This document shows positions 13,912-26,998 of a stretch of 46,516 bases of DNA, piece by piece (position 1 is the stretch's first letter; the number at the start of each line of letters is the position of its first letter). The DNA comes from Candidatus Aminicenantes bacterium (GTDB taxonomy: Bacteria; Acidobacteriota; Aminicenantia; Aminicenantales; UBA4085): positions 1 to 46,516 of the forward strand of contig VGJF01000002.1 of assembly GCA_016867585.1 (NCBI GenBank). The letters are read 5' to 3'. Below the pieces are notes generated by a model, which saw only the letters and a list, made by a program, of their open reading frames with translations, did not search any database and was not told the origin of the DNA. A program made the position numbers and the translations under genes.

Positions 13912-15297
13912 TCAGAATTCCGAAACGTCGATATCCAGCCGCTTGATCATCTCGTTGAGCGTCGTCGGCTTGACCCCGAGCTTCGCCGCGGCCGCTTTCT
14001 GGACGCCCTTGGACCGGTGGAGGATCGTCTCGATGAGCTTCCGCTGGAAAGCCAAGGTCTGCTCCCGGAGGTTGAAGGATTCGCCGGAAGGAAGGGAGAG
14101 CGTCTCGGCCGCCCCTTCCGGGCTCAGGTAGAACGCCGGGAGGTCTTCCCGGCCGATGAGGTTCGTCTTGGCGAAGACGACCGCCCGTTCGACGAGGTTC
14201 TCGAGCTCGCGGACGTTGCCCGGCCAAGGATGCGCCTCCAAGATGTCCAGGACATCCGGCGTCACCCCCTCGATCTCCTTGCCGTTTTCCTTGGCGTAGA
14301 GGTCGAGGAAGTGCTTGACGAGGAGGGGGATGTCGTCCCTCCGCTCCCGGAGCGGGGGGAGCCCGATCTTGATGACGTTGAGCCGGTAGTAAAGGTCCTT
14401 GCGGAAGGCCTTGGCGGCGATGAGCTCCTCGAGGTCGGTGTTCGTCGCGGCGATGATCCGGACGTCGACCCGGATCGTCTTCGTCCCGCCGAGGCGCATG
14501 AATTCCTTGTCCTGCATGACCCGGAGAAGCTTGGCCTGGGTTTCGAGGCCGATCGTCGAGATCTCGTCGAAGAAGATCGTCCCCTTGTCGGCCGCCTCGA
14601 AGAGGCCCTCCTTCTCGCTCACGGCCCCGGTGAAGGCGCCTTTGACGTGGCCGAAGAGATGGCTCTCGAGGAGGTCGGGAGGCAGGGCGCCGCTGTTGAC
14701 GACGATGAAGGGGAGATGGGCCCGGTTCGAGCTCTGATGGATGGCCCGGGCGACGAGCTCCTTGCCCGTGCCGCTTTCGCCCTCGACGAGGATCGTCGAG
14801 CGGGTCGGGGCCGCGGCCCGGATGAGCTCGAAGACCTTCTCCATGGCTTGGCTGCGGCCGATGAGGTTGCTGAAGCCGTACTTCCTCTGGAGGGCGTCCC
14901 GGAGGCGGAGATTCTCGTCCTGGAGGCTCTTGTGCTCGAGGGCCCGGCGGATCGTCAGGAGAAGCTCGTCGTGCTTGAAAGGCTTCTGGACATAGTCGTA
15001 GGCCCCGATTTTCATGGCCTCGATGGCCGATTCGACCGAGGCATAGGCCGTGATGATGATGACCAGGGCCCGGGGGTTCTGCCGTTTCAGGACCTTGAGG
15101 ACCTCGATCCCGTCCAAGCCGGGCATGAGGAGGTCGAGCAGGACGAGGTCGGGCCGGCGGAGGCCGTAGCTCTGGAGCCCTTCCTCGCCGGAGGAGGCGG
15201 CGGCGACGTCGTAGCCCTCCGAGGCGAGGAGCTGGCCGAGGACGTCGCGGATGACGGGTTCGTCGTCGATGATCAGGATCGCGTCCGATGAGCTCAT
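13912..15297 (-). CDS. Sigma54-dependent response regulator (NtrC family: REC + AAA+ + Fis-type HTH)
   Basis: REC domain (LIIDDEP...DLVLLDLLMPGLDG). AAA+ domain (GESGTGKELVARAIH, GAFTGA, ESHLFGH). C-terminal HTH (AAAKLGVKPTTLNEMIKRL). Confidence 0.9.
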   Translation of the reverse strand: MSSSDAILIIDDEPVIRDVLGQLLASEGYDVAAASSGEEGLQSYGLRRPDLVLLDLLMPGLDGIEVLKVLKRQNPRALVIIITAYASVESAIEAMKIGAYDYVQKPFKHDELLLTIRRALEHKSLQDENLRLRDALQRKYGFSNLIGRSQAMEKVFELIRAAAPTRSTILVEGESGTGKELVARAIHQSSNRAHLPFIVVNSGALPPDLLESHLFGHVKGAFTGAVSEKEGLFEAADKGTIFFDEISTIGLETQAKLLRVMQDKEFMRLGGTKTIRVDVRIIAATNTDLEELIAAKAFRKDLYYRLNVIKIGLPPLRERRDDIPLLVKHFLDLYAKENGKEIEGVTPDVLDILEAHPWPGNVRELENLVERAVVFAKTNLIGREDLPAFYLSPEGAAETLSLPSGESFNLREQTLAFQRKLIETILHRSKGVQKAAAAKLGVKPTTLNEMIKRLDIDVSEF

Positions 15298-18152
15298 GGG
15301 GAACCTTTCGCCGCCCGGCGCCGGTCGAGGTCCTTGGGCAGGACGATCGTGAACCGCGTCCCCCGGCCGGCCTCGCTCCGGACGTCGATTCGGCCCTCGT
15401 GCTCCTTGACGATCGCGTAGCTGATCGACAGGCCGAGGCCGGTGCCTTTCCCGATCCCTTTCGTCGTGAAGAAGGGGTCGAAGATCCGGGGGAGGTGCTG
15501 TTCCTTGATCCCCGTCCCGGTGTCGGCGATCGAGACGACGGCCTCGGAGGCCGTCTCGGCGAGGTCGACGGCCAGGCGGCCGCCGTCGGGCATGGCGTCG
15601 ATGGCGTTGAGGATGATGTTGATGAAGACCTGCTGGAGCCGCTCGCCCTGGGCCCAGACCGGCCCGACCGGGGCGAGGTTCAACTCGAGGACGATGGACA
15701 TGGCCTTGAGCTTATAGTCGATGAGGGAGATGATTTCCTGGAGGCTGTCCCGGAGGTTGACCCGGTGGAAGGCCGGATCGGACGGATTCCGGGAGAAGGT
15801 CAGAAGGTTTTTGATGATCCGCGAGACGCGCTCGGTCTGGGCTTCGATCTTCTCCAGGATTTGGGCGAGGTGGGCGTCGGTGGCCTTTTTCTGAAGCAAT
15901 TGGACGTAGCTCGAAATCCCGGTCAGCGGGGTGTTGATCTCGTGGGCGACGCCGGCCGAAAGGAGGCCGATCGAGGCCAGCTTCTCCGAGGTCACGAGTT
16001 GCTGCTGGAGACGGATTTTCTCGGTGATGTCCTCGAAGACGATGATCGTCCCGTAGGGGTTGAGCCGGTTGTCGAGGAGGGGGGTGCGGGCGATGTCGAA
16101 GACGCGCATCTCGCCCAGCCGGGTCTCGATCGGGATCTCGTTGAGGAGCTGGTAGTCCGAAAGGGTGTCGGGCGGATAAACGGCCGCGAACGTCTCCGGG
16201 CCGATGATGTCCCGGAGGCTCGAGCCGAGGACTTCCTCTTTCCTCCGTCCGAACGTCGCCTCGACGACCCGGTTCCAGCCGATGATCCGGCCGTTCTTGT
16301 CGAGGACGACGACGCCGACGGTCAGGCTCTCGATGATGTTCTCGCTGTAGTCCTTGAGCCGCTCGAGTTCGGCCGCCCGGGCCCCGGCCTGGGCGTAGAG
16401 CGAGGCGTTTTCGACGGCCAGGGCGGCCGGCGACGAGATCGTCGTCAGGAGCTCCCAGTCCTCGCTCGTCAGGAACGTCGCGTCGAGTTTGCGGCCCATG
16501 GCCAGGAGGCCGACGAGCTTGTCCTCGACCTTGAGGCCGAGGAAGTGCTCGAACCCCGAGGCGTTGAGGGTTTCGAGCCTGGCCTGGAGGGTCTTGTCTT
16601 CGGTCAGGGAATACAGCGAGAGGGAATCGCCGGCCGTCAGGGTTTCGGCCACGGCCAGGTCGAGGACGAGGCGGGCCGGCGAGGGGGTCGGGAAATCGCC
16701 CTTGGCACTCGAGAGGAGGAAGGCCCGGCTTCCGGCCTCTTCGGGAAGATAAAGGGCGATCGACCGCAGGGAGAGGGCGTTGGCGACGAGTTCGAGGAGG
16801 CGTCGGGCCAGGAGGTCGAGGTTGCGCTCCCGGGAGAGCTCCTGGGAGATGGCCAGGAGGGTTTTGCGGTACTGGTAGCTTCGGCGGTAGAAGACCCGGT
16901 CGAAGAGGGACTGGAAAAGCGACCGAAGAGGGGTGAAGAGCGTCGCCCCGAGAAGGATGGCCACGATCCCGAGGACGAGGGCGTTGGCTTTGTTCTGGGA
17001 GAAGATTTTGGTCTGGGAGGAGACGCCGAAATAGACGAGAGCCAGGACGAAGTAGGAGAACACGAGGGTCGCGGCCTTCTTGATGATGACCTCGAGGTCC
17101 ATGAGTTTGTAACGGGTGATGGAGTAAGAGACGGCCAAGGGGAGGAGGGCCTGGAGGAGGACCGTCAGTTCGGCCAGCTGGGTCGGGGCGTAGCCGGCGA
17201 CGAACGGCAGGACGTAGAACAGAGTGAAGGGCACGATGCCGAATCCGAGGCCGTAGACGACCCATTTGAGCTGGCGGCGGACGATGAAGCTCGAATGGCC
17301 GAGGGTGCTGTGGCCGAGGACGACGAGGGTCGCGAAGGTGAAGGCGGCGAAATGGCCCAGGTCGAGCTTCTCCAAGGTCCCGACGAGGGCCAGGAGGCGA
17401 CCGCTGTCGAGCGAACCGGCCAGGGGCAGATGGAGAACGACCCAGGAGAGGAAGAGGCCGGCCGCGGGGACGTAGAGAAGGCGGGACCTCGACGGCCGGC
17501 CGTCGAGGGATTTATGGCGCTGGGGATAGAGGAGGAAATAGTGGAGCAAGAGCGGCGGGAAGGCCAGGAAGGCGGCTTTGTCCAGCCAGAAAAAGGCCGA
17601 GTCGAGGAGGTCGAACTCGCCCGTCGGAGAGAAGATGTAGAAGGCGAAGAGGAGGGTCGAGAGGAGGTAGAACATGACATGGGTCGGGGCGTACGGGCGG
17701 GACGATTTCAGGAAGACGATGAGGGCCAGGATGAGCGTCGTCAGGCCGATCAGGGCCAGGTAGAAGTAGAGAATCGAAGTCCCTTTCGAACGGAGGAACA
17801 TCGAGAAATTCAGGGGGACGACCTCCCCGGTCCGGTAGATCTCGTAAGTCAGTTTCTGGCCGGCCGTCCCGGCCATCCAGAGGTTGCGGACGAGGTCGAT
17901 CTTGGACCGGATGACGACTTTATCGGGGACGAGGTTGTGGTTGACGGAGTGGACGACGTCGCCCTTTCTGATGCCGGCGAGCTCGGCCGGGCCGTCCGTG
18001 TCGACCCGGATCGCCGTCAGCCCGGCCGGGCGCTTCTCCCAGGTCACGCCGTCGGTCGGCTCCTTCCAGCCGATTTTCCGGCCGACGTTGACCCCCCCGA
18101 GAACGAGGAGCAGCGCCAGGAGGACAAGGAAGACATAGGCTTGGCGCCGCAT
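15294..18152 (-). CDS. Sensor histidine kinase: PDZ + about 9 TM + GAF + PAS + HisKA/HATPase
   Basis: N-terminal TM, then a PDZ-like region (GPAELAGIRKGDVVHSVN). Multi-TM block. H-box SAGVAHEINTPL. N/G boxes IILNAIDAM, DTGTGI, GTGLGL. 4-nt overlap with the regulator gene. Confidence 0.85.
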   Translation of the reverse strand: MRRQAYVFLVLLALLLVLGGVNVGRKIGWKEPTDGVTWEKRPAGLTAIRVDTDGPAELAGIRKGDVVHSVNHNLVPDKVVIRSKIDLVRNLWMAGTAGQKLTYEIYRTGEVVPLNFSMFLRSKGTSILYFYLALIGLTTLILALIVFLKSSRPYAPTHVMFYLLSTLLFAFYIFSPTGEFDLLDSAFFWLDKAAFLAFPPLLLHYFLLYPQRHKSLDGRPSRSRLLYVPAAGLFLSWVVLHLPLAGSLDSGRLLALVGTLEKLDLGHFAAFTFATLVVLGHSTLGHSSFIVRRQLKWVVYGLGFGIVPFTLFYVLPFVAGYAPTQLAELTVLLQALLPLAVSYSITRYKLMDLEVIIKKAATLVFSYFVLALVYFGVSSQTKIFSQNKANALVLGIVAILLGATLFTPLRSLFQSLFDRVFYRRSYQYRKTLLAISQELSRERNLDLLARRLLELVANALSLRSIALYLPEEAGSRAFLLSSAKGDFPTPSPARLVLDLAVAETLTAGDSLSLYSLTEDKTLQARLETLNASGFEHFLGLKVEDKLVGLLAMGRKLDATFLTSEDWELLTTISSPAALAVENASLYAQAGARAAELERLKDYSENIIESLTVGVVVLDKNGRIIGWNRVVEATFGRRKEEVLGSSLRDIIGPETFAAVYPPDTLSDYQLLNEIPIETRLGEMRVFDIARTPLLDNRLNPYGTIIVFEDITEKIRLQQQLVTSEKLASIGLLSAGVAHEINTPLTGISSYVQLLQKKATDAHLAQILEKIEAQTERVSRIIKNLLTFSRNPSDPAFHRVNLRDSLQEIISLIDYKLKAMSIVLELNLAPVGPVWAQGERLQQVFINIILNAIDAMPDGGRLAVDLAETASEAVVSIADTGTGIKEQHLPRIFDPFFTTKGIGKGTGLGLSISYAIVKEHEGRIDVRSEAGRGTRFTIVLPKDLDRRRAAKGSP

Positions 18153-18210: not shown

Positions 18211-18459
18211 TCAGTCCAGGACGTGGCGGCCCGAGGCCCGGATGGCCCAAATGATCCGGGGCTGCTCGGCCAGGCGGGCGTAGCGGCTGTCCTCCTGGAG
18301 GCCGAGAGGCCGGGTGTTCCGGTTGAGCCACTGGCTCATGTAGGAGGTGTCGGGGGGGCGGATCGGCTGGGTGTCTTGGGCGGGAGGAGGGTCTTGGGAG
18401 GCCAGGAGGGCCAGGGCGGCGACGGCCGGGAATGCCAGAATGCGCCTGCGTCCTTTCAT
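18211..18459 (-). CDS. Small secreted hypothetical protein (82 aa), first gene of the kinase operon
   Basis: ATG at 18459: MKGRRRILAFPAVAALALLASQ (signal-peptide-like). GC3-rich codon usage typical of the real genes here. No recognisable family. Confidence 0.5.
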   Translation of the reverse strand: MKGRRRILAFPAVAALALLASQDPPPAQDTQPIRPPDTSYMSQWLNRNTRPLGLQEDSRYARLAEQPRIIWAIRASGRHVLD

Positions 18460-18466
18460 CGATAAA

Positions 18467-18495
18467 ACGATACCCCTCCCCAGGGCGAATGTCAA
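18467..18495 (-). promoter_or_regulatory. Sigma70-type promoter (TTGACA-17-TATCGT, minus strand) ending 7 nt before the ATG at 18459
   Basis: Minus strand: TTGACA (18495-18490), 17-nt spacer, TATCGT (18472-18467), 7 nt, ATG. No room for a Shine-Dalgarno after the predicted start site. Confidence 0.4.
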
Positions 18496-18514: not shown

Positions 18515-18543
18515 TTGACAAAGGGCGGGCGTTGGCCTAAGCT
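18515..18543 (+). promoter_or_regulatory. Sigma70-type promoter for the secretion/pilus-like operon (TTGACA-17-TAAGCT)
   Basis: TTGACA at 18515-18520, 17-nt spacer, TAAGCT at 18538-18543. It sits back-to-back with the divergent promoter, the two -35 boxes 19 bp apart. Confidence 0.45.
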
Positions 18544-18593: not shown

Positions 18594-19796
18594 GTGCCTT
18601 CTTTTCTCTGCCGTTTGACCGGCGAAGACGGACGGGTCCTCGTCCGGAAACTCGCCGCGGCCTCGGCCGCGGACGTCCGACGGCACTTCGAGTCCGAAGG
18701 CCTGTGCGTCCTGGGGGTCAAGCGGGACTGGAGCCGCCTTCGCCTGTCCCTCTTCGAGGGCCGGATCAACCCCCGCGACTTCATCATGTTCAACCAGGAG
18801 CTCATGGCCCTTCTCCGGGCCGGCTATCCCGCCCTCCGGAGCCTCGAGGTCATCGCCGCGCGGGCCAAGAGCCCCGCCCTGCGCGACGTCCTGGGGAAGG
18901 TCGAAGAGGACATCCGGCACGGCAAGTCGATTTCGGAAGCCTTCGCGCCTTTCGAAAAGCGGTTTTCCAAGATCTATACGGCCGCCCTGACCGCCGGCGA
19001 GCAGAGCGGCAACCTTCCCGAGACGATCGGGCAGTACGTCCAGTACGCCAAGAGAATCGACCAAACCCGCCGCCGCGTCCGTTCGGCCATGACGTACCCG
19101 ACGCTGCTCTTTTTCTTCGCCGTGGGGCTCCTCCTGGTCATCCTGAACTTCGTCCTGCCGAATTTCTCCGACTTCTACGCCGACTTCGAAAGCCAGCTTC
19201 CCCTCGTCACGGTCCTGCTGATCGACTTTTCGATGTTCGTCCGCCGGTTGTGGTGGCTCTGGCTCCTCCTGATCGTCTTTCTCGCGGCCGCCGTCTCCCG
19301 GCTCAAACGCCGCGAAGACACCCTCGTCTGGCTTGAACGCCAGAAACTGCGCCTGCCCCTCGGCCGTCTTCTTTGGCGCGAGTCCGGGGTCGGGCTCTTC
19401 AGCCGAACGCTGAGCCTTCTCCTCGGAGCCGGGGTCTCGCTCGTGCCCGCGGTCGGGCTGGCCGCCCAGGCCATCCCCAACAAGTACCTCGCCGCGCGGG
19501 CCTCGGCCATCCCGGCCGGGATCAAGAACGGCGAGACCCTCTCGGAGGCCATGGCCAAGACCGAGGTCTTTCCCTCCCTGGCCCTGGACATGGTCCGGAT
19601 CGGGGAAACGTCGGCCAACCTGGCCGGGATGCTTCGCGAAGCGGCTGAGGTCTACGAAGAGCGGGTTCAGTCCAAGATCGACACCCTCGTTTCGCTCGTC
19701 GAACCGGTCATCATCATCTTCGTCGGTTTTCTCGTAGCCCTGATGCTCCTGGCCGTCTATCTTCCCATTTTCAACATCATCAAGGTGGCTCGCTGA
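18594..19796 (+). CDS. GspF/PilC-family inner-membrane platform protein
   Basis: 400 aa, GTG start after GGAGGAG. Two T2SSF-type repeats. Typical N-terminus and C-terminal LAVYLPIFNI. Confidence 0.9.
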   Translation: MPSFLCRLTGEDGRVLVRKLAAASAADVRRHFESEGLCVLGVKRDWSRLRLSLFEGRINPRDFIMFNQELMALLRAGYPALRSLEVIAARAKSPALRDVLGKVEEDIRHGKSISEAFAPFEKRFSKIYTAALTAGEQSGNLPETIGQYVQYAKRIDQTRRRVRSAMTYPTLLFFFAVGLLLVILNFVLPNFSDFYADFESQLPLVTVLLIDFSMFVRRLWWLWLLLIVFLAAAVSRLKRREDTLVWLERQKLRLPLGRLLWRESGVGLFSRTLSLLLGAGVSLVPAVGLAAQAIPNKYLAARASAIPAGIKNGETLSEAMAKTEVFPSLALDMVRIGETSANLAGMLREAAEVYEERVQSKIDTLVSLVEPVIIIFVGFLVALMLLAVYLPIFNIIKVAR

Positions 19797-19797
19797 C

Positions 19798-21408
19798 ATG
19801 GACAACTCCCCCCCCCGGACCATCCTCCCCGACGAGGACGGCGAAACGCGGAAGCTGGCCGAGCGATACGGCGTCCCGTTCACCGACCTCCGGGGCGTCG
19901 CCGTCGACCGCGACCTCGTCCAGAGCTTTCCGCCTGATTTCCTCTACCGGTCCAACTTCATCCCTCTCGAGGCCGGCCCGACGAGCCTCCGGATCGCCTT
20001 GGCCGACCCCTCCGACATGGCCACGATCGACGCCGTCGAGTCGTTGACCGGCAAGAAGGTCGAGGTCCTAGCCGCGCCCAAGAGGGCCATCCACGAGGCC
20101 CTCCGCAAGAGCGAAACCGCCCTCCAGGTCCTCCGCGACGCGACCGAAGGATTCATTCAGAGGATCGTCGAGAAGGACGGCGGCGAGGAGGAGGAGGCCA
20201 TCTCCCTCGAGAAGCTGGCCGACCAGGACGGCTCAATCATCAAGCTCGTCAACACGATCATCTTCACCGCCGTCCAGAAGCGGGCCTCGGACGTCCACGT
20301 CGAGTCGAAGGAGGAGAACGTCCACGTCAAGTACCGGATCGACGGGGTCCTCGGCGAGGCCATGGCCCCGATCGACAAGAAATTTCAGGCCCCGATCATC
20401 TCCCGGGTCAAGGTCATGTCCGACCTCGACATCGCCGAGCGCCGGATCCCCCAGGACGGCCGCTTCCGCCTCCGGATCAAGGACAAGACGATCGACTTTA
20501 GGGTCTCGGTCATGCCCTCGATCTACGGGGAGGACGCGGTCATCCGGATCCTGGACAAGGAGATGATCACCGAAGCCATCCGCGACCTCCGCCTCGACCT
20601 TCTCGGCTTCTCCGACGAAGTCCTCCGGAAGTTCCGCCGCTACATCACCCAGCCCTACGGGATGATCCTCGTCACCGGGCCGACGGGGAGCGGCAAGACG
20701 ACCTCCCTCTACGCCGCCCTGACCGAGATCAAGTCGATCGAGGACAAGATCATCACCATCGAAGATCCGGTCGAGTACCAGATCGACGGGATCACCCAGA
20801 TCCCGGTCAACGAGAAGAAGGGCCTGACCTTCGCCCGCGGCCTCCGCTCGATCCTCCGCCACGACCCCGACAAAATCATGGTCGGCGAGATCCGCGATCC
20901 CGAGACGGCCCAGATCGCCATCCAGTCGGCCCTGACCGGCCATCTCGTCTTCACGACCGTCCACGCCAACAACGTCTTCGACGTCATCGGCCGGTTCCTC
21001 CACATGCAGGTCGACCCCTACAGCTTCATCTCGGCCCTCAACTGCATTCTCGCCCAGCGCCTGGTCCGGGTTCTCTGCCCGGCCTGCAAGTCGGCCGTCC
21101 GATACGCCGACGACCAGCTCCTCGAGTCCGGACTCGACCCCGACGTCTACCGCGGCCGGACATTTTACGAAGCCCGGGGCTGCCGGGAGTGCGGCCAGAC
21201 GGGCTATCAGGGCCGGACGGCCATCGCCGAGCTCCTCGAACTCTCCGACGAGATCCGGGAAATGATCCTCGGCCGCAAGCCCCTCTCCGAGATCCGCAAG
21301 AAGGCCAAGGCCGAGGGGATCATCTTTCTCCGCGAGGTCGGCGTCCAGAAGGTTTTCGACGGGACGACGAGCCTCAAGGAATTGAACAAAGTCACGTTCG
21401 TGGAATGA
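19798..21408 (+). CDS. GspE/PilB-family assembly ATPase
   Basis: N-terminal GSPII_E_N-like domain. Walker A GPTGSGKTT, Asp box, Walker B, His box. Tetracysteine CPACK...CRECGQTGYQGR. Confidence 0.9.
   Translation: MDNSPPRTILPDEDGETRKLAERYGVPFTDLRGVAVDRDLVQSFPPDFLYRSNFIPLEAGPTSLRIALADPSDMATIDAVESLTGKKVEVLAAPKRAIHEALRKSETALQVLRDATEGFIQRIVEKDGGEEEEAISLEKLADQDGSIIKLVNTIIFTAVQKRASDVHVESKEENVHVKYRIDGVLGEAMAPIDKKFQAPIISRVKVMSDLDIAERRIPQDGRFRLRIKDKTIDFRVSVMPSIYGEDAVIRILDKEMITEAIRDLRLDLLGFSDEVLRKFRRYITQPYGMILVTGPTGSGKTTSLYAALTEIKSIEDKIITIEDPVEYQIDGITQIPVNEKKGLTFARGLRSILRHDPDKIMVGEIRDPETAQIAIQSALTGHLVFTTVHANNVFDVIGRFLHMQVDPYSFISALNCILAQRLVRVLCPACKSAVRYADDQLLESGLDPDVYRGRTFYEARGCRECGQTGYQGRTAIAELLELSDEIREMILGRKPLSEIRKKAKAEGIIFLREVGVQKVFDGTTSLKELNKVTFVE
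19808..19816. repeat. Homopolymeric C9 tract in codons 4-7 of the ATPase gene
   Basis: atg gac aac tcc ccc ccc cgg: nine consecutive C, counted directly. Confidence 0.9.
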
Positions 21409-22334
21409 CGATGGCCGGAATCCGGGAGCGCTGGAACCGCTTTTTCACGGAGCCGATCGCTCCGCCGACGGCTTTTCAAATCAGCCGGGGTTTCCTTTGC
21501 GGCGTCCGTCACTCCCGGAAGGAGCGGCGGATCGCGGCCCATGTCATCCGTCCCCTCCCGCCGGGCGCCCTCAACCCCGGGTTCGACCGCCCGAACGTCG
21601 TCGACGCCCCGGCGCTCGAGGCCGCCGTCCGGGACGCCGTGCGACGCCTCGGCGCCGCCGAGATGATGGTTTCCCTCCTCATCCCGGAGACCGCGGTCAA
21701 GACGGTCCTCCTGGCCTTCGACGCCCTGCCGTCCGCGGACGAAGAGCGCGAGTCCGTCGTCCGCTGGAAATTGGCCAAGACGCTGCCTTTGAAATTCTCC
21801 GACCTCCGGCTCTCGTTCGACGTCTCGAAAACGAACGGCGGGAAGAGGGCTTTCTGCGTCTTGGCCCTCGAGAGCGTCGTCCGGGAATACGAAGAGGCCT
21901 TTGCCAAGACGGGTCTCCGCGTCCGGGCGGTCGGACTTCCGACGCCTCACCTCCTCGGGCTCCTCCCGGAGAGCGGCCCGACCGAGGTCCTTATCGCCAA
22001 CGTCGAGGAAGACCATTTGTCGCTTTTCGCCGCCGGGGACGGGGGGCCGGTCCTCTTCCGGGTCAAGGGATTCACCCCGGCGAGCGCGGCCGGCGGCGAA
22101 GGCTGGCCCCTCGTCGCGGCCGAGGTCGTCAACACGATCCATTTCCTCGAGGACCGCGAAAACTTCCGGGTCAAGGCCATTTGGGTCCGGGACGCCCGGG
22201 GGGCGCCCTCGGCCGTGGAGGCCTTGGCGGCGAGGGCCGGATGCCCCGTCCGTCCGGTCGGCTTCGCTTCGCCGGCCGTGGCCGGCCCCCGGGAGCAGGC
22301 CCTTCTCGCGCCTCTCATCGGACAGGTTTCATGA
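21405..22334 (+). CDS. PilM/GspL-like cytoplasmic assembly protein (divergent)
   Basis: Real gene is the C-terminal 309 aa of track ORF 21189..22334 (MTMAGIRERW...). ATGA overlap with the gspE stop. Called from position, size and lack of TM segments; sequence similarity is weak. Confidence 0.55.
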   Translation: MTMAGIRERWNRFFTEPIAPPTAFQISRGFLCGVRHSRKERRIAAHVIRPLPPGALNPGFDRPNVVDAPALEAAVRDAVRRLGAAEMMVSLLIPETAVKTVLLAFDALPSADEERESVVRWKLAKTLPLKFSDLRLSFDVSKTNGGKRAFCVLALESVVREYEEAFAKTGLRVRAVGLPTPHLLGLLPESGPTEVLIANVEEDHLSLFAAGDGGPVLFRVKGFTPASAAGGEGWPLVAAEVVNTIHFLEDRENFRVKAIWVRDARGAPSAVEALAARAGCPVRPVGFASPAVAGPREQALLAPLIGQVS

Positions 22335-22894
22335 ACGGACGGCCGCGGCCCCACATCAACCTGGCCAGCCGGCCGGTCCGCAACCGGCGATTCTATTTCG
22401 CCGCCTTGGGCGGGATGATGGCCGTCTTCGTCCTCGCCGCCGCCGTCCTCGGTCTGTGGCTCGTCCGGGCTTCGAGCCGGGCTTCGGCCGACGCGAAGGC
22501 GGCCGCGGCCGCAAGCCTCCGGTCGTCCGACACCGAAAGAGAGCGGCTCGATTTTGTCGGGAGGGCTGATGCCCTTCAGCGCCGGGAGCGGGACCTCGTC
22601 GCCCAGGTCAATCAGGCGATCGCCCGCAAACGGTTCTCCTATGTCGAGTTCTTCGCACTTCTCGAGGAGGCCCTGCCGGCGAGGTGTTATATCGCCGCCC
22701 TCACTCCCGTTTCCGCCCCCGAGGGACGGATCGAAAACCGCCTCCGGGTCGTTACGGCCGGCCTCGAGGACCTCATGGGCCTGATGACCAGGCTGGAGAA
22801 CCTGAAATTCAAGAACGTCATGATGAAAGGCGAGATCCAGGTCGGCGGCGAGCTCGTCGCCGAAATCGGGTTGGTCTATGAAAAAGCTCATTGA
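22331..22894 (+). CDS. PilN-like bitopic assembly protein
   Basis: 187 aa from the ATG at 22331 (ATGA overlap). INLASRP N-terminus followed by a single TM (FYFAALGGMMAVFVLAAAVLGLWLV), then a coiled-coil and ferredoxin-like periplasmic part. Confidence 0.6.
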   Translation: MNGRPRPHINLASRPVRNRRFYFAALGGMMAVFVLAAAVLGLWLVRASSRASADAKAAAAASLRSSDTERERLDFVGRADALQRRERDLVAQVNQAIARKRFSYVEFFALLEEALPARCYIAALTPVSAPEGRIENRLRVVTAGLEDLMGLMTRLENLKFKNVMMKGEIQVGGELVAEIGLVYEKAH

Positions 22895-23447
22895 CCTTCT
22901 GGGGGCTGGGGAGAGGAAAACCCTGCGGATGGGGGCCGTCCTGGCCGGCCTCGCCGCCGCGGCCCTCCTCCTGTTCGCCGTCCGGGCCGAGGTCCGGGCC
23001 GGGCGGGAGGCCCGCCGTCTGGCCGCGGCCGAAGACCGGGTCCGGGAAGCCGAGCGGAACCGCGACGCGGCCGAGGTCGAGCTCGGACGATGGGCCGGGG
23101 CCCAGACCGATCTCCGGGAGCTCGGGGCGAAATGGTTCTATGACCCCGGCCAGGGCATCCCGGCGCTTCGCTACGACCTCCGGAAAATCTTTCAGGAGAC
23201 AGGGATCGCCGTCCCGGAAATCACCTATAACGACATCGACCTCGTCCGCGGCAGGCTCCGGCGGGTCACGGCCGAGTTCAGGCTGGCCGGGCCCTACGTC
23301 CTCTTCCGCCGCTTCCTGGAAATGGTCGAAAAGCAGCCTCGCGCGATCCACGTCGAAAAGGTCGAGTTCGAGGACATCGGGACGATGCAGCCCGGGATCG
23401 TCCAGGTCCGGGTAACTCTGGTGGGGTATTACCTCCATGAAGAATGA
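22878..23447 (+). CDS. PilO/GspM-like bitopic assembly protein
   Basis: 189 aa. N-terminal TM (LRMGAVLAGLAAAALLLFAV), coiled-coil, C-terminal alpha/beta domain. 17-nt overlap with the upstream gene. Confidence 0.5.
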   Translation: MKKLIDLLGAGERKTLRMGAVLAGLAAAALLLFAVRAEVRAGREARRLAAAEDRVREAERNRDAAEVELGRWAGAQTDLRELGAKWFYDPGQGIPALRYDLRKIFQETGIAVPEITYNDIDLVRGRLRRVTAEFRLAGPYVLFRRFLEMVEKQPRAIHVEKVEFEDIGTMQPGIVQVRVTLVGYYLHEE

Positions 23448-23934
23448 AATGGTCATCTTCGCGGCCCTGGCGGCCGCGGCCGCGATCTTCGCCCAGGACC
23501 AAACCTCGGCCCCGAGCCGGGGGGCGGCCCCTTTGGTCCGCGTCGATCTCGTCACCTTCGCCCCCCGCCCCTTCAATCCGCCCAGACGCGACCTGTTCAC
23601 GACTCAAGTGTATGTCTCGGCGGCCGGGGCAGGTCCCGGAGCCTCCGGCCCGGGGTACGTGACGTCTCCCCCGGCGACAGAGACGGTCGAGAAAGAAAAA
23701 CTCGAAGAAGCGCCGACGCCCGGTTTCGTCTTGAGATATGTCGGCTTCGTCCAAAACCGGGCCCGGACGAGGTTCGTCGGGCTGGTCATGTTCGAAGGCC
23801 GGCCCCATCCGGTCGAATTGAACGATGTCATCGGACCGGGCTGGAAGGTCCGCCGTCTGTCGGACAAGGAGATCGAGGTCGAAGGGCCGGACGGCGCCAC
23901 CCAGGTTTTCGCCCTCGAAGGAGAGATTCGATGA
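23437..23934 (+). CDS. PilP/GspC-HR-like periplasmic protein
   Basis: 165 aa. Signal peptide (MVIFAALAAAAAIFAQ), a Pro/Gly-rich linker, and a C-terminal small beta-domain (RYVGFV...GLVMFEGRPHPVELNDVIGPGWKVRRLSDKEIEVEG). Confidence 0.45.
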   Translation: MKNEMVIFAALAAAAAIFAQDQTSAPSRGAAPLVRVDLVTFAPRPFNPPRRDLFTTQVYVSAAGAGPGASGPGYVTSPPATETVEKEKLEEAPTPGFVLRYVGFVQNRARTRFVGLVMFEGRPHPVELNDVIGPGWKVRRLSDKEIEVEGPDGATQVFALEGEIR

Positions 23935-26090
23935 GAACGCGGACGGCTTCAGTCCTTCTTCTGGCCATAGGGATGACGGCCTGCGCGACGATCAGTCCGC
24001 AGTACCAGCTCGGGGCGCGGGCGGAGATCGGGGGGCAGTGGGAGGAGGCGATCCGCTGCTATCAGAAGGCCTCTCTGGAGAATCCCAAGAGTCCGATCTA
24101 TCGGGCCGCCCTGGAACGGGCCCGCTTCGGGGCAAGCCTGTTCTATCTCCAGCAGGCGAGGCTGTGGGTGGCTCAGGACAAGCGGGAGGAGGCCAAGGCG
24201 GCCTACGCCAAGGCGATGGAGTACAATCCGCGCGACGCGATGATCGCCTACGAAGCCCAGAAGGCGCTGGCGGAAGGGCCGAAGGAGGTGGCCGAGCCGA
24301 AGCCGGCCAGGATCGAGTTCCCGATCAAGCTGCGGCCGAAGGACGAGCTGCTGCAGGTTCGTTTTCCAACGGAGACGTCGCTGCGGTCGATCTTCCAGGC
24401 GCTCGGCCGGGCGGCGGGAGTGGCCGTCGTTTTCGACGAAAACTTCCGCGACATCCCTTTCACGGCCGACGCGTCGAACCAGACCTTCGAACAGGCCTTG
24501 AGGTCGATCACCCTGGCGACAAAACACTTCACCCGGATCATCGACGAGAAGACGGTCATGGTCATCCCGGACCAGCCGTTGAAGAGGATCCAGTACGAGG
24601 TCAACTGCATCAAGACCTTCTATCTTTCCAACGTCATCGCCCAGGAGCTGGTGGCCTCGCTGTCGCAGGCCCTCCGCTCGCAGGTCAAGGCGCCGACGAT
24701 CATCTTCGACAAAGGATTGAACTCGCTGACGATCCGGGGGACGCCGCAGGAGGTCGAGCTGGCCGAGCGGCTGGTCCTGGCCTGGGACAAGCCGAAGGGC
24801 GAGGTCATGATCAAGGTCGAGATCATGGAAGTCAGCCGGATGCGGCTGCGCCAGCTCGGGCTGTCCCTGGACAAGAACATCGTCGGGCTGCGGTACGGAA
24901 CTCCGTCCACGGATGGGACGGCGACGACGAGCTGGTTTCCCCTGACCGGTCTGGGATTGGGCAAGGTCGAGAACTATTCGATCAGCCTGCCGGTCGGCTA
25001 TCTCCAGTTTCTGGAGTCGGACAGCGAAACGAAGGTCATCGCCCAGCCGTGGCTGCGGGGCGTTGCCGACGAGGAGCTCCGCCAGCTCGTCGGGCAGAAG
25101 ATTCCGATCCCGCGGACGACCTTCCAGCCGTTCGCCGCCGGCGGCTTCGCCCAGCAGCCGATCATGAACTACGAGCAGCAGGACGTCGGGATCGAAGTCA
25201 AGATCACGCCGAGGATACATCTCGAGCGCGAGGTCACCCTCCAGACCGAGTTCAAGGTGACCTCGATCGGCGGGACGGGGATCGCCGACATTCCGATCAT
25301 CAATACCCGCGAGCTCAAGGGGGTCATGCGGCTGCGCGAAGGGGAGACCCAGCTCATTGCCGGCCTCCTCCGCGACGAGGAGCGTAGGACGATCAAGGGG
25401 ATCCCCGGACTCAAGGACATCCCCGGCTTGGGCCGACTGTTCGGGTCCGAGGACAGGACGATCGAGCAGACCGACATCCTGATCTCTCTGACGCCGTACA
25501 TCGTCCGGACGATCCCCTTCGGGGCCGACGACGGCCAACCCTTCTGGGTCGACATCGAAACCCAGCCCACGGGGCAGGCGGGAGGGATCCTCGATCCCGA
25601 GCTCGTCGGCCGGGATATCGAGGTTGAAGCCCAGCGGGCCCTCGCCGAGCGACGGGGGCAGGACCAGGGCCCCAACGTCATGCGGCTGGTCCCTCCGAAT
25701 TTCGAGCTTCCCCTGGGCCGGGACGTCCGGGTCAACGTCCAGCTCCAGAATGCCGTCGAAATCGGGACGATCAGCGTCACCTTCAACTACAACCCCAGGA
25801 GCCTCGTCCTCAAGGACGTGACGGAGGGCAACTTGGCCCGCCAGCTCGGAGCGAACATCCCCTTCCTCAAGAACATCGACAACAACGCCGGGATCTGCGT
25901 CATCGGGTTCTCGAGCCCGCAGGTCGGGCGCGGCTTCAAGGGCAGCGGCACTCTGGCCATGCTGACCTTCGAGGCCAAGTCGCCGGGCGAGTCGATCGTC
26001 GCCGTGTCGGCCTGCCAAGCTGCCGGCGGGACCGGCCAGACGGTCGCCGTCCAGACCGCAGAGGCCCAGTCCAGGATCATCGTCCGCTAG
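23931..26090 (+). CDS. Secretin (GspD/PilQ family) lipoprotein with N-terminal TPR-like helices and a C-terminal cohesin-like domain
   Basis: Lipobox-like LLLAIGMTAC. N-domains. Secretin core (TRELKGVMRLREGETQLIAGLL...IPGLKDIPGLGRLFG...DILISLTPYIVR). Then a 193-aa extension with a cohesin-like pattern. Confidence 0.85.
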   Translation: MRTRTASVLLLAIGMTACATISPQYQLGARAEIGGQWEEAIRCYQKASLENPKSPIYRAALERARFGASLFYLQQARLWVAQDKREEAKAAYAKAMEYNPRDAMIAYEAQKALAEGPKEVAEPKPARIEFPIKLRPKDELLQVRFPTETSLRSIFQALGRAAGVAVVFDENFRDIPFTADASNQTFEQALRSITLATKHFTRIIDEKTVMVIPDQPLKRIQYEVNCIKTFYLSNVIAQELVASLSQALRSQVKAPTIIFDKGLNSLTIRGTPQEVELAERLVLAWDKPKGEVMIKVEIMEVSRMRLRQLGLSLDKNIVGLRYGTPSTDGTATTSWFPLTGLGLGKVENYSISLPVGYLQFLESDSETKVIAQPWLRGVADEELRQLVGQKIPIPRTTFQPFAAGGFAQQPIMNYEQQDVGIEVKITPRIHLEREVTLQTEFKVTSIGGTGIADIPIINTRELKGVMRLREGETQLIAGLLRDEERRTIKGIPGLKDIPGLGRLFGSEDRTIEQTDILISLTPYIVRTIPFGADDGQPFWVDIETQPTGQAGGILDPELVGRDIEVEAQRALAERRGQDQGPNVMRLVPPNFELPLGRDVRVNVQLQNAVEIGTISVTFNYNPRSLVLKDVTEGNLARQLGANIPFLKNIDNNAGICVIGFSSPQVGRGFKGSGTLAMLTFEAKSPGESIVAVSACQAAGGTGQTVAVQTAEAQSRIIVR

Positions 26091-26097
26091 CCCGGGG

Positions 26098-26619
26098 ATG
26101 ATTGTCCTCGTCTCGGGTCGCGTCGGGGCGGGCAAATCGACCCTTGTCCGGAAAGCCGCGGTCCAGCTGCGGCGGCGCGGCGTTCCTCTCGCCGGATTCC
26201 GGAGCGAGCGCGTTTTCGGCGGGGACGAGCTCCGGGGCTACGACCTCGTCGATTTGGCCGACGGAAAGCGGACTCCGTGGCTCCGCCGCGGCTCCGCGGG
26301 GGAGCGGATCGGGCCTTACGCCGTCGTCCCGGAGGGGAAAGCCGCCGCGGCGGAGATCATCGGCCGCGGCCCGACCGGCGCGATCCTCGTCGTCGACGAG
26401 CTCGGACCGGCGGAACTCGCCGGGCGGGGATTCTGGCCTTGGCTCGTCCCCCTCCTCGATGACGAGGGGCGGTCCTTCCTGTTCGTGGTCCGGACGGCTT
26501 GTCTTCCCGCCTTCAAGAAGCTCTTCGCAGGCCGCCCGGTGAGGATCTTCCGGACCGGCCCCCGGGCCCTGCCCGAAAACCTCGTCAGCCTCATTCTCGC
26601 CCATGGTCGTCAAGGTTAA
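26098..26619 (+). CDS. P-loop NTPase (THEP1/DUF2478-like)
   Basis: 173 aa. Walker A GRVGAGKST. Walker B-like ILVVDELGPAE. Only 7 nt after the secretin stop. Confidence 0.6.
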   Translation: MIVLVSGRVGAGKSTLVRKAAVQLRRRGVPLAGFRSERVFGGDELRGYDLVDLADGKRTPWLRRGSAGERIGPYAVVPEGKAAAAEIIGRGPTGAILVVDELGPAELAGRGFWPWLVPLLDDEGRSFLFVVRTACLPAFKKLFAGRPVRIFRTGPRALPENLVSLILAHGRQG

Positions 26620-26878: not shown

Positions 26879-26889
26879 GATACGCTCAT

Positions 26890-26918
26890 TTGACATCCAT
26901 TTGATTCTGTTCGATAAT
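26890..26918 (+). promoter_or_regulatory. Sigma70-type promoter for the AOR gene (TTGACA-17-GATAAT)
   Basis: TTGACA at 26890-26895, 17-nt spacer, GATAAT at 26913-26918, in a 120-nt AT-rich spacer. Confidence 0.5.
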
Positions 26919-26998
26919 AAAATCAATAAGTTAAGGAGAGAACGACGGATTTAGGATTATGGGCGGATCGACAATGAAATCCAAAATCTTCCGATTTC

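What the first reader, a model, noticed from the sequence alone, without database searches (positions are those of the whole stretch)
18594..26090. Pilin-less, PilT-less T4P/T2SS-type machine encoded as one translationally coupled F-E-M-N-O-P-secretin operon
Seen: seven consecutive plus-strand genes. One pair is separated by a 1-nt gap and the rest have 4-17 nt start/stop overlaps (21405/21408, 22331/22334, 22878/22894, 23437/23447, 23931/23934). They encode a GspF/PilC platform, a GspE/PilB ATPase, four small divergent proteins with PilM/GspL-, PilN-, PilO/GspM- and PilP/GspC-like topology, and a secretin. On neither strand of the 46.5 kb do I find an ORF with a class III (prepilin) leader of the G/FTL(I/L)E type, a prepilin peptidase, or a PilT/PilU retraction ATPase.

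Known: characterised T4aP, T2SS, Com and Tad machines all need (pseudo)pilins and a peptidase, usually clustered with E/F. T2SS order is C-D-E-F-G..., and in T4aP pilMNOPQ is normally separate from pilB/C.

Inference: either the filament genes lie elsewhere, or this is a compact, poorly characterised secretin-based subtype. It sits near the centre of the window and is the best candidate for an undescribed system.
Basis: partly seen in the sequence, partly recalled or inferred. Interest (0 to 1): 0.7.

Follow-up and report, generated by a model that had tools for sequence, protein, structure and literature searches.

The report
Pul-type secretion machine without linked pilins
This is a real, tightly packed seven-gene operon for a type II secretion / type IV pilus-like envelope machine in a Candidatus Aminicenantes bacterium. 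Its gene order is already known from the little-studied "Pul" systems of Geobacter relatives, and the missing pilin genes have probably moved elsewhere in the genome rather than become unnecessary.

Summary
Window 18594-26090 carries seven co-directional genes, F-E-M-N-O-P-secretin, with the stated +1/-4/-4/-17/-11/-4 junctions. I found no prepilin, prepilin peptidase or PilT anywhere in the 46.5 kb.

The operon is conserved in the same order, with the same overlaps and a conserved sigma70-type promoter, in 68 Aminicenantes species loci. None of these has a prepilin within 10 kb.

The order is not new. Distant homologues in Thermoanaerobaculia, Nitrospiraceae and Terriglobia have the same core genes plus two or three adjacent pilin or pseudopilin genes (GspG-like in the first two, type IVa-like in Terriglobia). 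The annotated Pelobacter/Geobacter "Pul" type II secretion cluster reads pulF-E-M-N-O-P-Q-pulG-oxpG.

The machine is a hybrid. It has a PilM/PilN/PilO/PilP-type alignment complex (the PilM fold is confirmed by structure). Its ATPase scores equally as PilB and GspE. Its secretin is a lipoprotein with an N-terminal TPR module and a C-terminal cohesin domain.

The most likely reading is a Pul-type secretion machine whose pseudopilins and peptidase are encoded elsewhere. I could not test this genome-wide. A truly pilin-free machine is not excluded but is unlikely (about 7%). I rate it a new variant of a known, poorly characterised kind, of moderate interest.

The parts
18515..18543 (+). Sigma70-type promoter of the operon: TTGACA-N17-TAAGCT, 79 nt upstream of the F start codon
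   Evidence: A TTGACA-N16-18-TAnnnT site lies 49-120 nt upstream of F in 49 of 54 Aminicenantes loci. No sigma54 -24/-12 site was found.
18594..19796 (+). F: GspF/PilC inner-membrane platform protein (400 aa, GTG start)
   Evidence: Pfam T2SSF, two stretches, E 4e-55. NCBIfam GspF scores 285.6 bits, below the 424 cut-off, and PilC models score 220-228 bits. The best PDB match by sequence is Myxococcus PilC, 3jc8.
19798..21408 (+). E: GspE/PilB-type extension ATPase (536 aa) with an N-terminal MshEN/T2SSE_N domain, Walker A GPTGSGKTT and a CxxC...CxxC zinc motif
   Evidence: Pfam T2SSE E 1e-129 and MshEN E 3e-18. NCBIfam PilB scores 531.2 and GspE 529.5, both below their cut-offs. PDB sequence matches: PilB 427 bits, GspE 360 bits. 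The motifs can be read in the translation. Identity is 76-89% across Aminicenantes.
21405..22334 (+). M: cytoplasmic PilM-like actin-fold protein (309 aa, no membrane segment)
   Evidence: AF2 model with pLDDT 85.8 and pTM 0.87. Foldseek ranks 1-10 are all PilM, with TM 0.64-0.75. The cytoplasmic domain of GspL reaches only TM 0.43-0.50. Sequence-level PilM_2/TIGR01175 hits are weak.
22331..22894 (+). N: PilN-like bitopic protein (187 aa) with a conserved N-terminal PilM-binding-type peptide (consensus LNLASRPLRNRR; INLASRPVRNRR in the window), one TM helix and a C-terminal alpha/beta domain
   Evidence: Invariant residues N10, A12, P15, R17, N18 and R19 in 21 orthologues. hhalign probability 96.4% to Nitrospiraceae L070:10868-11497, which hits Pfam PilN at E 9.5e-8.
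22878..23447 (+). O: PilO/GspM-like bitopic protein (189 aa)
   Evidence: 20 of 23 orthologues hit PF10741 T2SSM_b (best 9e-8) and 4 hit PF04350 PilO. hhalign probability 85% to a Terriglobia PilO-hitting protein.
23437..23934 (+). P: PilP/GspC-like periplasmic protein (165 aa) with a signal or anchor sequence, a conserved PLVRxDLL...RDIF motif, a disordered linker and a C-terminal beta domain
   Evidence: Alignment. Of 21 orthologues, 4 hit T2SSC (best 1.9e-4), 1 hits PilP and 1 hits HofP. This is the weakest assignment of the seven. It rests on position directly upstream of the secretin, plus an AMIN-domain extension in some orthologues.
23931..26090 (+). Q: lipoprotein secretin (719 aa) with the architecture lipobox Cys18, TPR, N0-like, one N1, secretin barrel, about 55-aa flexible linker, cohesin
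   Evidence: Pfam Secretin E 9.5e-32, Secretin_N E 5e-11, TPR_2, FecR_C-like and Cohesin E 4e-12. The Cys is conserved in essentially all 68 orthologues; a strict lipobox regex matched 51. AF2 domain map. NCBIfam GspD scores 140 bits and PilQ 90 bits, both far below their cut-offs.
23997..24269 (+). Q residues 23-113: TPR module directly after the lipid-anchor cysteine, resembling a pilotin
   Evidence: Pfam TPR_2 and TPR_11. Helical repeats with pLDDT 80-89. Also present in the Nitrospiraceae and Thermoanaerobaculia secretins.
25011..25508 (+). Q residues 361-526: secretin pore domain
   Evidence: PF00263 covers residues 361-526. Foldseek matches GspD, PilQ and InvG secretins at E about 1e-14.
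25674..26087 (+). Q residues 582-719: C-terminal cohesin domain
   Evidence: PF00963 E 4e-12. pLDDT about 90. Foldseek matches true cohesins (2xdh, 6kgd, 4ums) at TM 0.68-0.80 and rmsd 2.4-3.2 A.
18211..18459 (-). Small conserved secreted ORF (82 aa, C-terminus ...SGRHVLD) between the kinase gene and F. Function unknown; context only.
   Evidence: The translation is. Orthologues of 90-106 aa occupy the same position in L002, L003, L023, L025 and L053. No Pfam hit.
15294..18152 (-). Divergently transcribed sensor histidine kinase (PDZ-TM-GAF-PAS-HisKA-HATPase); syntenic context
   Evidence: Pfam. Adjacent to the operon in every Aminicenantes locus that reaches this far.
13912..15297 (-). NtrC-type sigma54-dependent response regulator paired with the kinase; syntenic context
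   Evidence: Pfam Response_reg, Sigma54_activat and HTH_8. The position is conserved.
26098..26619 (+). NTPase_1 (THEP1-like) gene 7 nt after the secretin stop codon. Probably belongs to the downstream ThiS-AFOR-aldolase block rather than to the machine.
   Evidence: Pfam NTPase_1 E 5e-21. In the 4.28 Mb genome it follows the second secretin copy, not the operon.

Best explanation
The operon encodes the envelope-spanning core of a Pul-type type IV filament machine. This is a type II secretion-like system that keeps a type IV pilus-style alignment complex. Cytoplasmic E (a hexameric ATPase) and M dock on the platform F and on the N-terminal peptide of N. N and O form the inner-membrane/periplasmic stator. 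P bridges to the N0 domain of the lipoprotein secretin Q, whose fused TPR module probably substitutes for a separate pilotin. ATP hydrolysis by E would drive assembly of a short pseudopilus from GspG-like pseudopilins, pushing folded periplasmic proteins (or a thin fibre) through Q. In Aminicenantes the pseudopilin genes and the prepilin peptidase are not in the operon, so they are inferred to lie elsewhere in the genome. Shown: gene identities, order, coupling, conservation, the promoter, the domain architecture, and homology to pseudopilin-linked clusters in other phyla. Inferred: protein contacts, self-piloting, secretion as the output, and the existence of unlinked pseudopilins.
For: All seven genes are conserved in the same order across 68 Aminicenantes species loci (E 76-89% identical). 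The start/stop overlaps and a sigma70-type promoter are conserved too, which argues for a functional, co-translated unit.

Homologous clusters elsewhere share the TPR-N0-N1-secretin-cohesin secretin where one was found, and PilM-, PilN- and PilO-type genes. They also carry linked pilin-type genes:
- Thermoanaerobaculia L074 has F-E-M-N-O-P-Q followed directly by two N_methyl pseudopilins and a third pseudopilin-like gene.
- Nitrospiraceae L069-L073 and L076 have Q-G1-G2-LysM-F-E-M-N-O...
- Terriglobia L075 has pilin-pilin-F-E-M-N-O.

The cluster-linked pseudopilins hit T2SSG weakly and form a large family. At 50% clustering there are 219 representatives with E <= 1e-30, and JGI names many of them 'general secretion pathway protein G'.

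The literature gives the Pelobacter Pul clusters as pulF-pulE-pulM-pulN-pulO-pulP-pulQ (a secretin lipoprotein)-pulG-oxpG, with a third pseudopilin, tklG, unlinked. It also states that the Geobacter Pul system is required for OmpB secretion (PMC3543383 text and Table S4).

No locus of the whole family carries a peptidase or PilT, so using a distant PilD is the family norm. MSH loci do the same (PMC6668835).
Against: No pseudopilin or peptidase of any Aminicenantes genome was actually found. tblastn with the relatives' pseudopilins gives nothing better than E = 0.17 in 68 loci plus the window. My two attempts to find such genes elsewhere returned only unlabelled or Nitrospira sequences and were uninformative.

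Sequence homology to the Geobacter and Pelobacter Pul proteins themselves was not tested; the link rests on gene order, names and the lipoprotein secretin.

Several features lean towards a true pilus rather than secretion. These are the stand-alone PilM, the best PDB hits to PilB and PilC, an AMIN domain on P in some species, and the type IVa-like pilins in the Terriglobia relative. The substrates are unknown.
Confidence: 0.6

Rival explanations
1. It is the assembly core of a genuine type IV pilus used for adhesion, twitching or DNA uptake. On this view pilC-pilB have fused to pilMNOPQ in one operon, and the major and minor pilins, PilD and possibly PilT are encoded elsewhere. The neighbouring kinase and sigma54 activator would act like PilS/PilR on a distant pilin promoter.
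For: M has the PilM fold rather than the GspL fold, and N has the PilM-binding peptide. The best solved relatives of E and F are Myxococcus and Geobacter PilB and Myxococcus PilC. Q has only N0 and one N1 domain, like PilQ. P carries an AMIN domain, otherwise typical of PilQ, in L047 and L061. The Terriglobia relative has two type IVa-like pilins directly upstream of F. The NtrC-type regulator pair is syntenic in all Aminicenantes, yet the operon itself has a sigma70 promoter, so the activator's target is elsewhere.
Against: The pseudopilins linked to the closest full-order relatives are short (133-168 aa) and GspG-like. NCBIfam ranks GspF and GspD above PilC and PilQ. No PilT lies near any of the 76 loci. 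The one functionally studied system with this gene order, Geobacter Pul, is a secretion system. PilB scores no better than GspE.
Confidence: 0.27
2. The Aminicenantes machine has dispensed with (pseudo)pilins altogether. It would use the ATPase, platform, alignment complex and cohesin-bearing secretin for a filament-independent export or docking function, such as polymer or cargo release through the secretin.
For: No prepilin lies within 10 kb in 68 of 68 species, or within 18-20 kb in the window. There are no pseudogene remnants, although relatives keep 2-3 pilin-type genes in the cluster. The seven genes nevertheless remain strongly conserved and coupled. Secretins have been implicated in slime export (title and abstract of PMC12475490, seen; the paper was not read).
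Against: No known GspE/GspF/PilMNOP machine works without pilins (established knowledge of type IV filament systems, for example PMC6668835). Unlinked pilin genes are commonplace, for example tklG in Pelobacter. Absence was shown only locally, not genome-wide.
Confidence: 0.07
3. The operon is a decaying remnant that lost its pilins and no longer functions.
For: It lacks the pilin genes that relatives keep in the cluster.
Against: The reading frames are intact and their lengths nearly invariant across orthologues: N 187-188 aa, O 186-187 aa. E is 76-89% identical across a whole class. The overlaps and the promoter are conserved. Coding composition is strong.
Confidence: 0.02

Closest known systems
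[quoted passage not shown] 2006; Pelobacter carbinolicus Pul-1 and Pul-2, PMC3543383)
   Same: The seven-gene order F-E-M-N-O-P-Q is identical. M is annotated as a putative ATPase (an actin-like PilM type), with separate N, O and P. The secretin is a lipoprotein. There is no peptidase and no PilT in the cluster.
   Different: In Pelobacter and Geobacter, pulG and oxpG follow pulQ directly. In Aminicenantes an NTPase-ThiS-AFOR block follows Q instead, and no pseudopilin is linked. Direct sequence homology and the domain make-up of PulQ (TPR, cohesin) were not tested here.
Uncharacterised homologous clusters in Thermoanaerobaculia (L074), Nitrospiraceae (L069-L073, L076) and Terriglobia (L075)
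   Same: E is 54-60% identical and F 30-33%. M, N and O are homologous. In L074 and in the Nitrospiraceae loci that include Q, the secretin has the same TPR, N0, N1, secretin and cohesin domains and a lipobox.
   Different: They carry 2-3 prepilin-type genes inside the cluster. The Nitrospiraceae order is permuted (Q first) and adds a LysM protein. They lack the Aminicenantes-specific kinase/regulator synteny.
Type IVa pilus machine (PilB, PilC, PilMNOPQ; Myxococcus 3jc8, Pseudomonas, Thermus)
   Same: The PilM fold, the PilN N-terminal peptide, PilO/PilP-like partners, a secretin with N0 and N1, and a PilB-like ATPase with an N-terminal domain and a zinc motif.
   Different: It falls below the PilB, PilC and PilQ equivalog cut-offs. 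No pilin, PilD or PilT is linked. pilC-pilB are fused to pilMNOPQ in one operon. The secretin carries TPR and cohesin modules and is itself a lipoprotein.
Canonical Gsp type II secretion system (GspC-M)
   Same: GspF and GspD are the best-scoring NCBIfam models for F and Q. O orthologues hit T2SSM_b and P orthologues hit T2SSC. Relatives have GspG-like pseudopilins. There is no retraction ATPase.
   Different: All scores are below the curated cut-offs. There is no fused GspL, since M and N are separate. P has no PDZ or coiled-coil domain. Q has one N1 domain instead of N1-N3. The gene order differs.

Membership tests
Geobacteraceae Pul-type T2SS | Gene order pulF-pulE-pulM-pulN-pulO-pulP-pulQ on one strand | tested here: met
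   Window order and junctions, compared with Table S4 of PMC3543383.
Geobacteraceae Pul-type T2SS | The secretin is a lipoprotein | tested here: met
   A signal sequence followed by a conserved Cys (Cys18 in the window protein) in essentially all 68 orthologues. PulQ is annotated 'secretin lipoprotein'.
Geobacteraceae Pul-type T2SS | Pseudopilin genes (pulG, oxpG) immediately downstream of the secretin | tested here: not met
   No prepilin in the window or within 10 kb in 68 Aminicenantes loci. The feature is met in the Thermoanaerobaculia relative L074.
Geobacteraceae Pul-type T2SS | Sequence orthology of E, F and Q to Geobacter/Pelobacter PulE, PulF and PulQ | not tested
Geobacteraceae Pul-type T2SS | Required for secretion of a folded exoprotein (OmpB in Geobacter) | not testable with these tools
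   This is an experimental property, cited from PMC3543383.
Canonical T2SS (Gsp) | GspD, GspE and GspF reach the NCBIfam equivalog cut-offs | tested here: not met
   GspD 140.2 against 351.35, GspE 529.5 against 630.25, GspF 285.6 against 424.
Canonical T2SS (Gsp) | GspL: actin-like cytoplasmic domain fused to a TM helix and a periplasmic domain | tested here: not met
   M is a 309-aa soluble protein with the PilM fold. N is a separate bitopic protein.
Canonical T2SS (Gsp) | Major and minor pseudopilins GspG-K encoded with the machine | tested here: not met
Type IVa pilus system | PilB, PilC and PilQ reach the NCBIfam cut-offs | tested here: not met
   PilB 531.2 against 675.65, PilC models 220-228 against 700, PilQ 89.8 against 284.35.
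Type IVa pilus system | PilM-PilN-PilO-PilP alignment subcomplex | tested here: met
   PilM by fold. PilN by its N-terminal motif and hhalign. PilO/GspM by orthologue Pfam hits. PilP is only weakly supported.
Type IVa pilus system | Major pilin, prepilin peptidase PilD and retraction ATPase PilT present in the genome | not testable with these tools
   Absent from the 46.5 kb window and from all 68 loci at +-10 kb. Whole genomes could not be scanned.
MSHA pilus system | MshL-type secretin, with MshM and MshN accessory genes | tested here: not met
   MshL model 69.1 against a cut-off of 250.2. No MshM-like gene is in the operon.

The most novel reading that the evidence does not exclude
Across the whole class Aminicenantia, a GspE/GspF/PilMNOP/secretin machine has lost all dedicated (pseudo)pilins and works without a filament. 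Alternatively, it borrows a single generic pilin. In either case its 15-fold ring of secretin-borne cohesin domains would act as a docking hub for cargo or surface enzymes.
Probability: 0.07. Interest if true: 0.85.

Novelty: new variant of a known kind. Interest (0 to 1): 0.38.

Why it matters
The operon belongs to a widespread family found in Acidobacteriota and Nitrospirota and, judging by annotated gene order alone, also in Desulfuromonadia. The family has barely been studied. It combines a pilus-style alignment complex with secretion-style pseudopilins, so it may be an evolutionary intermediate between type IVa pili and type II secretion.

Its secretin carries a lipid anchor, a pilotin-like TPR module and a cohesin domain in one polypeptide. 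Two of my literature searches touched on this; the one that paired 'secretin' with 'cohesin domain' listed no relevant paper. The architecture offers a compact model for self-piloting secretins. It also raises the question of what the cohesin binds.

Aminicenantes are abundant, uncultured sediment fermenters, so this is probably their main route for exporting hydrolases. If complete genomes proved to lack prepilins and a peptidase, the machine would challenge the rule that these systems need a filament.

Tried and rejected
1. Sigma54 control of the operon by the adjacent NtrC-type regulator. No -24/-12 element was found upstream of F in 53 of 54 loci, and a conserved sigma70-type promoter is present instead.

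2. A hidden or degenerate pilin in or near the operon. A six-frame class III leader regex and tblastn with the relatives' three pseudopilin-like genes and their LysM gene gave nothing better than E = 0.17. Insertions between the kinase gene and F, or between O and P, in some species encode a membrane protein, a peptidase or an AMIN extension of P, not pilins.

3. PilD or PilT in the flanks. Motif scans of all 76 loci and the window were negative.

4. Finding Aminicenantes pseudopilins elsewhere in the genome.
- A profile of the globular domains of the relatives' pseudopilins (A6) returned 6123 hits, but the top 120 were almost all Nitrospira type-1 proteins.
- An exhaustive search of 50% representatives with the type-2 profile (A7) gave 219 hits at E <= 1e-30, but these carry no taxonomy.
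- Cluster look-ups of 20 representatives gave only 'general secretion pathway protein G' and one 'Acidobacteriota' label, and no contig-length match to known Aminicenantes contigs.
- The result is uninformative and is not evidence of absence.

5. Literature on Aminicenantes pili or secretion. Nothing usable was found, and the Kadnikov 2019 genome paper is not held.

6. Treating the NTPase_1 gene as an eighth component. I rejected this because in the 4.28 Mb genome it travels with a duplicated secretin and the AFOR block, not with the operon.

7. c-di-GMP control through the MshEN domain. Reading the translation by eye, I saw no obvious tandem RLGxxLLxxGLI-type motif in the N-terminus of E. I did not pursue this.

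Full report
**Source and gene map.** The window is 65% G+C. The best named relatives of its secretin are MAG proteins labelled Candidatus Aminicenantes or Aminicenantales, in phylum Acidobacteriota. GC3-guided ORF calling and Pfam scans give the following map around the finding:
- 13912-15297 (-): an NtrC-type sigma54 response regulator.
- 15294-18152 (-): a PDZ-GAF-PAS histidine kinase.
- 18211-18459 (-): a small secreted ORF.
- 18594-26090 (+): the seven genes of the finding.
- Downstream (+): NTPase_1 (26098-26619), ThiS (26603-26878), aldehyde:ferredoxin oxidoreductase (26999-28852) and a class II aldolase.

The rest of the window holds metabolic and repair genes and is unrelated.

**Check of the observation.** The coordinates and junctions are exactly as reported: F/E +1, E/M -4, M/N -4, N/O -17, O/P -11 and P/Q -4 nt. 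All seven genes have GC3 of 0.78-0.93 and GC2 of 0.38-0.50. A six-frame regex for class III leaders finds nothing credible in the window. The same regex finds 2-3 genuine prepilins in every distant relative, so it is a working detector. Motif scans find no PilD (GxGDxK) or PilT (AIRNLIRE) signature, and only one T2SSE Walker A in the window.

**What the seven proteins are.**
- F has two T2SSF domains.
- E has MshEN/T2SSE_N plus T2SSE domains, Walker A GPTGSGKTT, and the CPAC...CREC zinc motif typical of extension ATPases.
- M was only weakly PilM-like by sequence (E 5e-3 and 3e-4). An AlphaFold2 model built on 20 orthologues (pLDDT 85.8, pTM 0.87) matches PilM of Pseudomonas, Myxococcus and Thermus as Foldseek ranks 1-10 (E 2e-19 to 1e-15, TM 0.64-0.75). 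FtsA comes next, and the cytoplasmic domain of GspL reaches only TM 0.43-0.50. M has no membrane segment, so it is a stand-alone PilM rather than a GspL.
- N has an invariant N-terminal N-x-A-x-x-P-x-R-N-R peptide (consensus LNLASRPLRNRR). This is the kind of peptide that PilN uses to bind PilM in entries 2ych and 5eou. Its C-terminal domain aligns at 96% hhalign probability to a Nitrospiraceae protein that hits Pfam PilN.
- O orthologues hit T2SSM_b in 20 of 23 cases and PilO in 4 of 23.
- P has a signal or anchor sequence, a conserved PLVRxDLL...RDIF motif, a disordered linker and a C-terminal beta domain. A few orthologues hit T2SSC, PilP or HofP weakly. This is the least secure assignment.
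- Q is a secretin (PF00263, E 1e-31).

**The secretin architecture.** Q has one Secretin_N domain and an N0-like (FecR_C/STN-like) domain. It also has an N-terminal TPR module just after a conserved lipobox cysteine, and a C-terminal cohesin domain. The AF2 model resolves these domains. It shows a low-confidence linker of about 55 residues before the cohesin. Foldseek matches the last domain to true cohesins at TM 0.68-0.80 and rmsd 2.4-3.2 A.

**Classification by curated models.** No component reaches an NCBIfam equivalog cut-off:
- E scores 531.2 for PilB and 529.5 for GspE, against cut-offs of 675.65 and 630.25.
- F scores 285.6 for GspF (cut-off 424) and 220-228 for the PilC models (cut-off 700).
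- Q scores 140 for GspD (cut-off 351), 90 for PilQ (cut-off 284) and 69 for MshL (cut-off 250).

Among solved structures, E is nearest to Myxococcus and Geobacter PilB, F to Myxococcus PilC, and Q marginally to GspD. The machine is therefore neither a canonical T4aP nor a canonical Gsp system.

**Conservation.** A scan of one genome per GTDB species, using a profile of M, returned 72 loci, of which 64 (L005-L068) group with the Aminicenantes operon. Four more such loci came from look-ups of secretin homologues, giving the 68 referred to here. Some records carry other labels, such as 'uncultured Eubacteriales', Acidobacteriota or Terriglobales. I did not check their taxonomy independently and grouped them by similarity of the operon.
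- Wherever the contig reaches, the order is regulator(-), kinase(-), then F-E-M-N-O-P-Q-NTPase...AFOR.
- Identity to the window proteins is 76-89% for E, 50-65% for F, 42-60% for Q and 25-45% for M, N, O and P.
- Protein lengths are almost invariant: N 187-188 aa, O 186-187 aa.
- The overlaps are conserved.
- A TTGACA-N16-18-TAnnnT promoter lies 49-120 nt upstream of F in 49 of 54 loci. No sigma54 element is present.

This is a functional, co-translated unit rather than a relic.

**Pilins.** None of the 68 Aminicenantes loci has a prepilin within 10 kb. tblastn with the relatives' pseudopilin genes finds no remnant; the best E-value is 0.17. The eight distant relatives found by the same scan do carry prepilin-type genes:
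- Thermoanaerobaculia L074 reads F-E-M-N-O-P-Q, followed immediately by two N_methyl pseudopilins and a third pseudopilin-like gene.
- Nitrospiraceae loci read Q-G1-G2-LysM-F-E-M-N-O-..., with a third pseudopilin-like gene further on and a canonical T2SSG pseudopilin about 4 kb away.
- Terriglobia L075 has two type IVa-like pilins, then F-E-M-N-O.

The L074 and Nitrospiraceae secretins have the same TPR, N0, N1, secretin and cohesin domains and a lipobox; no secretin was identified in L075 or L072. The two cluster-linked pseudopilin types share a scaffold with 21 invariant positions, and the shorter type hits T2SSG weakly. No locus of the whole family, pilin-linked or not, contains a peptidase or PilT.

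**Link to a described system.** The Pelobacter carbinolicus genome paper lists two 'Pul' type II secretion clusters as pulF, pulE, pulM (a putative ATPase), pulN, pulO, pulP, pulQ (a secretin lipoprotein), pulG and oxpG. A third pseudopilin, tklG, is encoded elsewhere. The paper states that the Geobacter Pul system is required for secretion of the multicopper oxidase OmpB, citing Mehta et al. 2006 (PMC3543383). I could not fetch Geobacter or Pelobacter sequences. Orthology is therefore inferred from gene order, names and the lipoprotein secretin, and is not demonstrated.

**Interpretation.** The best-supported reading (confidence about 0.6) is a Pul-type, secretion-like type IV filament machine.
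- E, M and F form the cytoplasmic and inner-membrane motor.
- N and O form the stator, and P links them to Q.
- The TPR lipoprotein module of Q resembles the TPR lipoprotein pilotins PilF, PilW and Tgl, which I cite from memory. It probably makes the secretin self-piloting.
- Pseudopilins and PilD would be supplied in trans.

That last step is an inference. It rests on three points. All known machines of this superfamily polymerise pilins. Unlinked pilin and peptidase genes are common: tklG in Pelobacter, and MSH loci that lack a peptidase (PMC6668835). The operon is also under strong purifying selection.

The main rival (about 0.27) is a true type IV pilus core, favoured by the T4aP-style M, N, O and P proteins, the PilB and PilC affinities, the AMIN domain on P in two species and the Terriglobia pilins. 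A pilin-free machine (about 0.07) cannot be excluded, because I could not scan whole Aminicenantes genomes. My attempts to reach Aminicenantes pseudopilins through profile searches were swamped by Nitrospira or returned unlabelled sequences.

**Role of the cohesin.** This remains open. By analogy with the C-terminal S-domain of GspD, which I cite from memory, the C-terminus should emerge on the periplasmic side of the barrel. The long flexible linker leaves its location undetermined. No dockerin-bearing neighbour was seen.

**Verdict.** The finding is a class-wide variant, with unlinked pseudopilins, of a known but poorly characterised Pul-type family. Its hybrid composition and its TPR-secretin-cohesin fusion deserve attention. 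Overall interest is moderate.

Noticed in passing
L002 (operon) and L001 (second copy), both on the 4.28 Mb contig ena:ERZ25039515:contig_12062 at 187663-209822 and 222907-245060: One complete Aminicenantes genome has two paralogous TPR-secretin-cohesin genes, 52% and 54% identical to the window secretin Q. One ends the operon. The other lies about 13 kb further on and is followed by the NTPase-ThiS-AFOR block. Large FG-GAP/SBBP beta-propeller proteins and a Peptidase_C1-lectin protein flank the two copies, and they could be cargo or an insertion.
   Followed up: partly
L047:12018-13283 and L061:11989-13260: In two Aminicenantes species the P protein is 421-423 aa long and carries an AMIN domain (Pfam E 3e-12). 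This peptidoglycan-associated module is otherwise typical of PilQ secretins.
   Followed up: partly
window 18211-18459 (-): An 82-aa secreted ORF with no Pfam hit lies between the kinase gene and F. ORFs of 90-106 aa occupy the same position in at least five other Aminicenantes loci, and the three read (90-95 aa) share a C-terminal motif, SARHILD or TQRHIFN (SGRHVLD in the window).
   Followed up: partly
window 18515-18543 and the equivalent position in 49 of 54 loci: The operon promoter is unusually well conserved, including its spacer. Many species share TTGACAATAATTGCGCCCTGGAATAGATT, which suggests a regulator-binding site overlapping the promoter.
   Followed up: partly
window about 18466-18494 (-): On the minus strand, a TTGACA-N17-TATCGT site ends only about 7 nt before the ATG of the small ORF. 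This would give a leaderless or nearly leaderless transcript for the small-ORF/kinase/regulator unit. I read it by eye from the sequence and did not test it.
   Followed up: no
window 26098-30171 (+): NTPase_1 (THEP1-like), ThiS/MoaD-like, aldehyde:ferredoxin oxidoreductase and a double class II aldolase form a block that follows the secretin in nearly all Aminicenantes loci. NTPase_1 and ThiS overlap by 17 nt. The association of a ThiS-like carrier and an NTPase with AFOR may be of metabolic interest.
   Followed up: no
L069-L073 and L076 (for example L070:5895-6809): The Nitrospiraceae versions of the cluster contain a conserved 304-aa protein with a coiled coil and a LysM domain, between the pseudopilins and F. 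It has no counterpart in Aminicenantes and may be a peptidoglycan anchor of the machine.
   Followed up: partly
window 31271-33916 (-) and 33909-36590 (-): An 881-aa protein has a C-terminal FHA / YscD-cytoplasmic-like domain and no other recognised domain. Its gene overlaps that of an 893-aa protein combining a beta-propeller with a phosphoesterase domain. Function is unknown, and I saw no link to the operon.
   Followed up: no
window 7626-8462 (+): An IS481-type transposase N-terminal HTH fragment (278 aa) without a detected catalytic domain lies next to the glutamine synthetase gene. It is probably a degraded insertion sequence.
   Followed up: no
L077 (jgi:3300065424 Ga0586905_0013278): A metagenome contig shows another variant of the family. 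An 852-aa secretin (STN, Secretin_N and Secretin, with no cohesin recorded) is followed by a 146-aa protein and a 139-aa pseudopilin, then by a 273-aa protein with a weak Big_1 hit. Secretin C-terminal modules therefore vary within the family.
   Followed up: no
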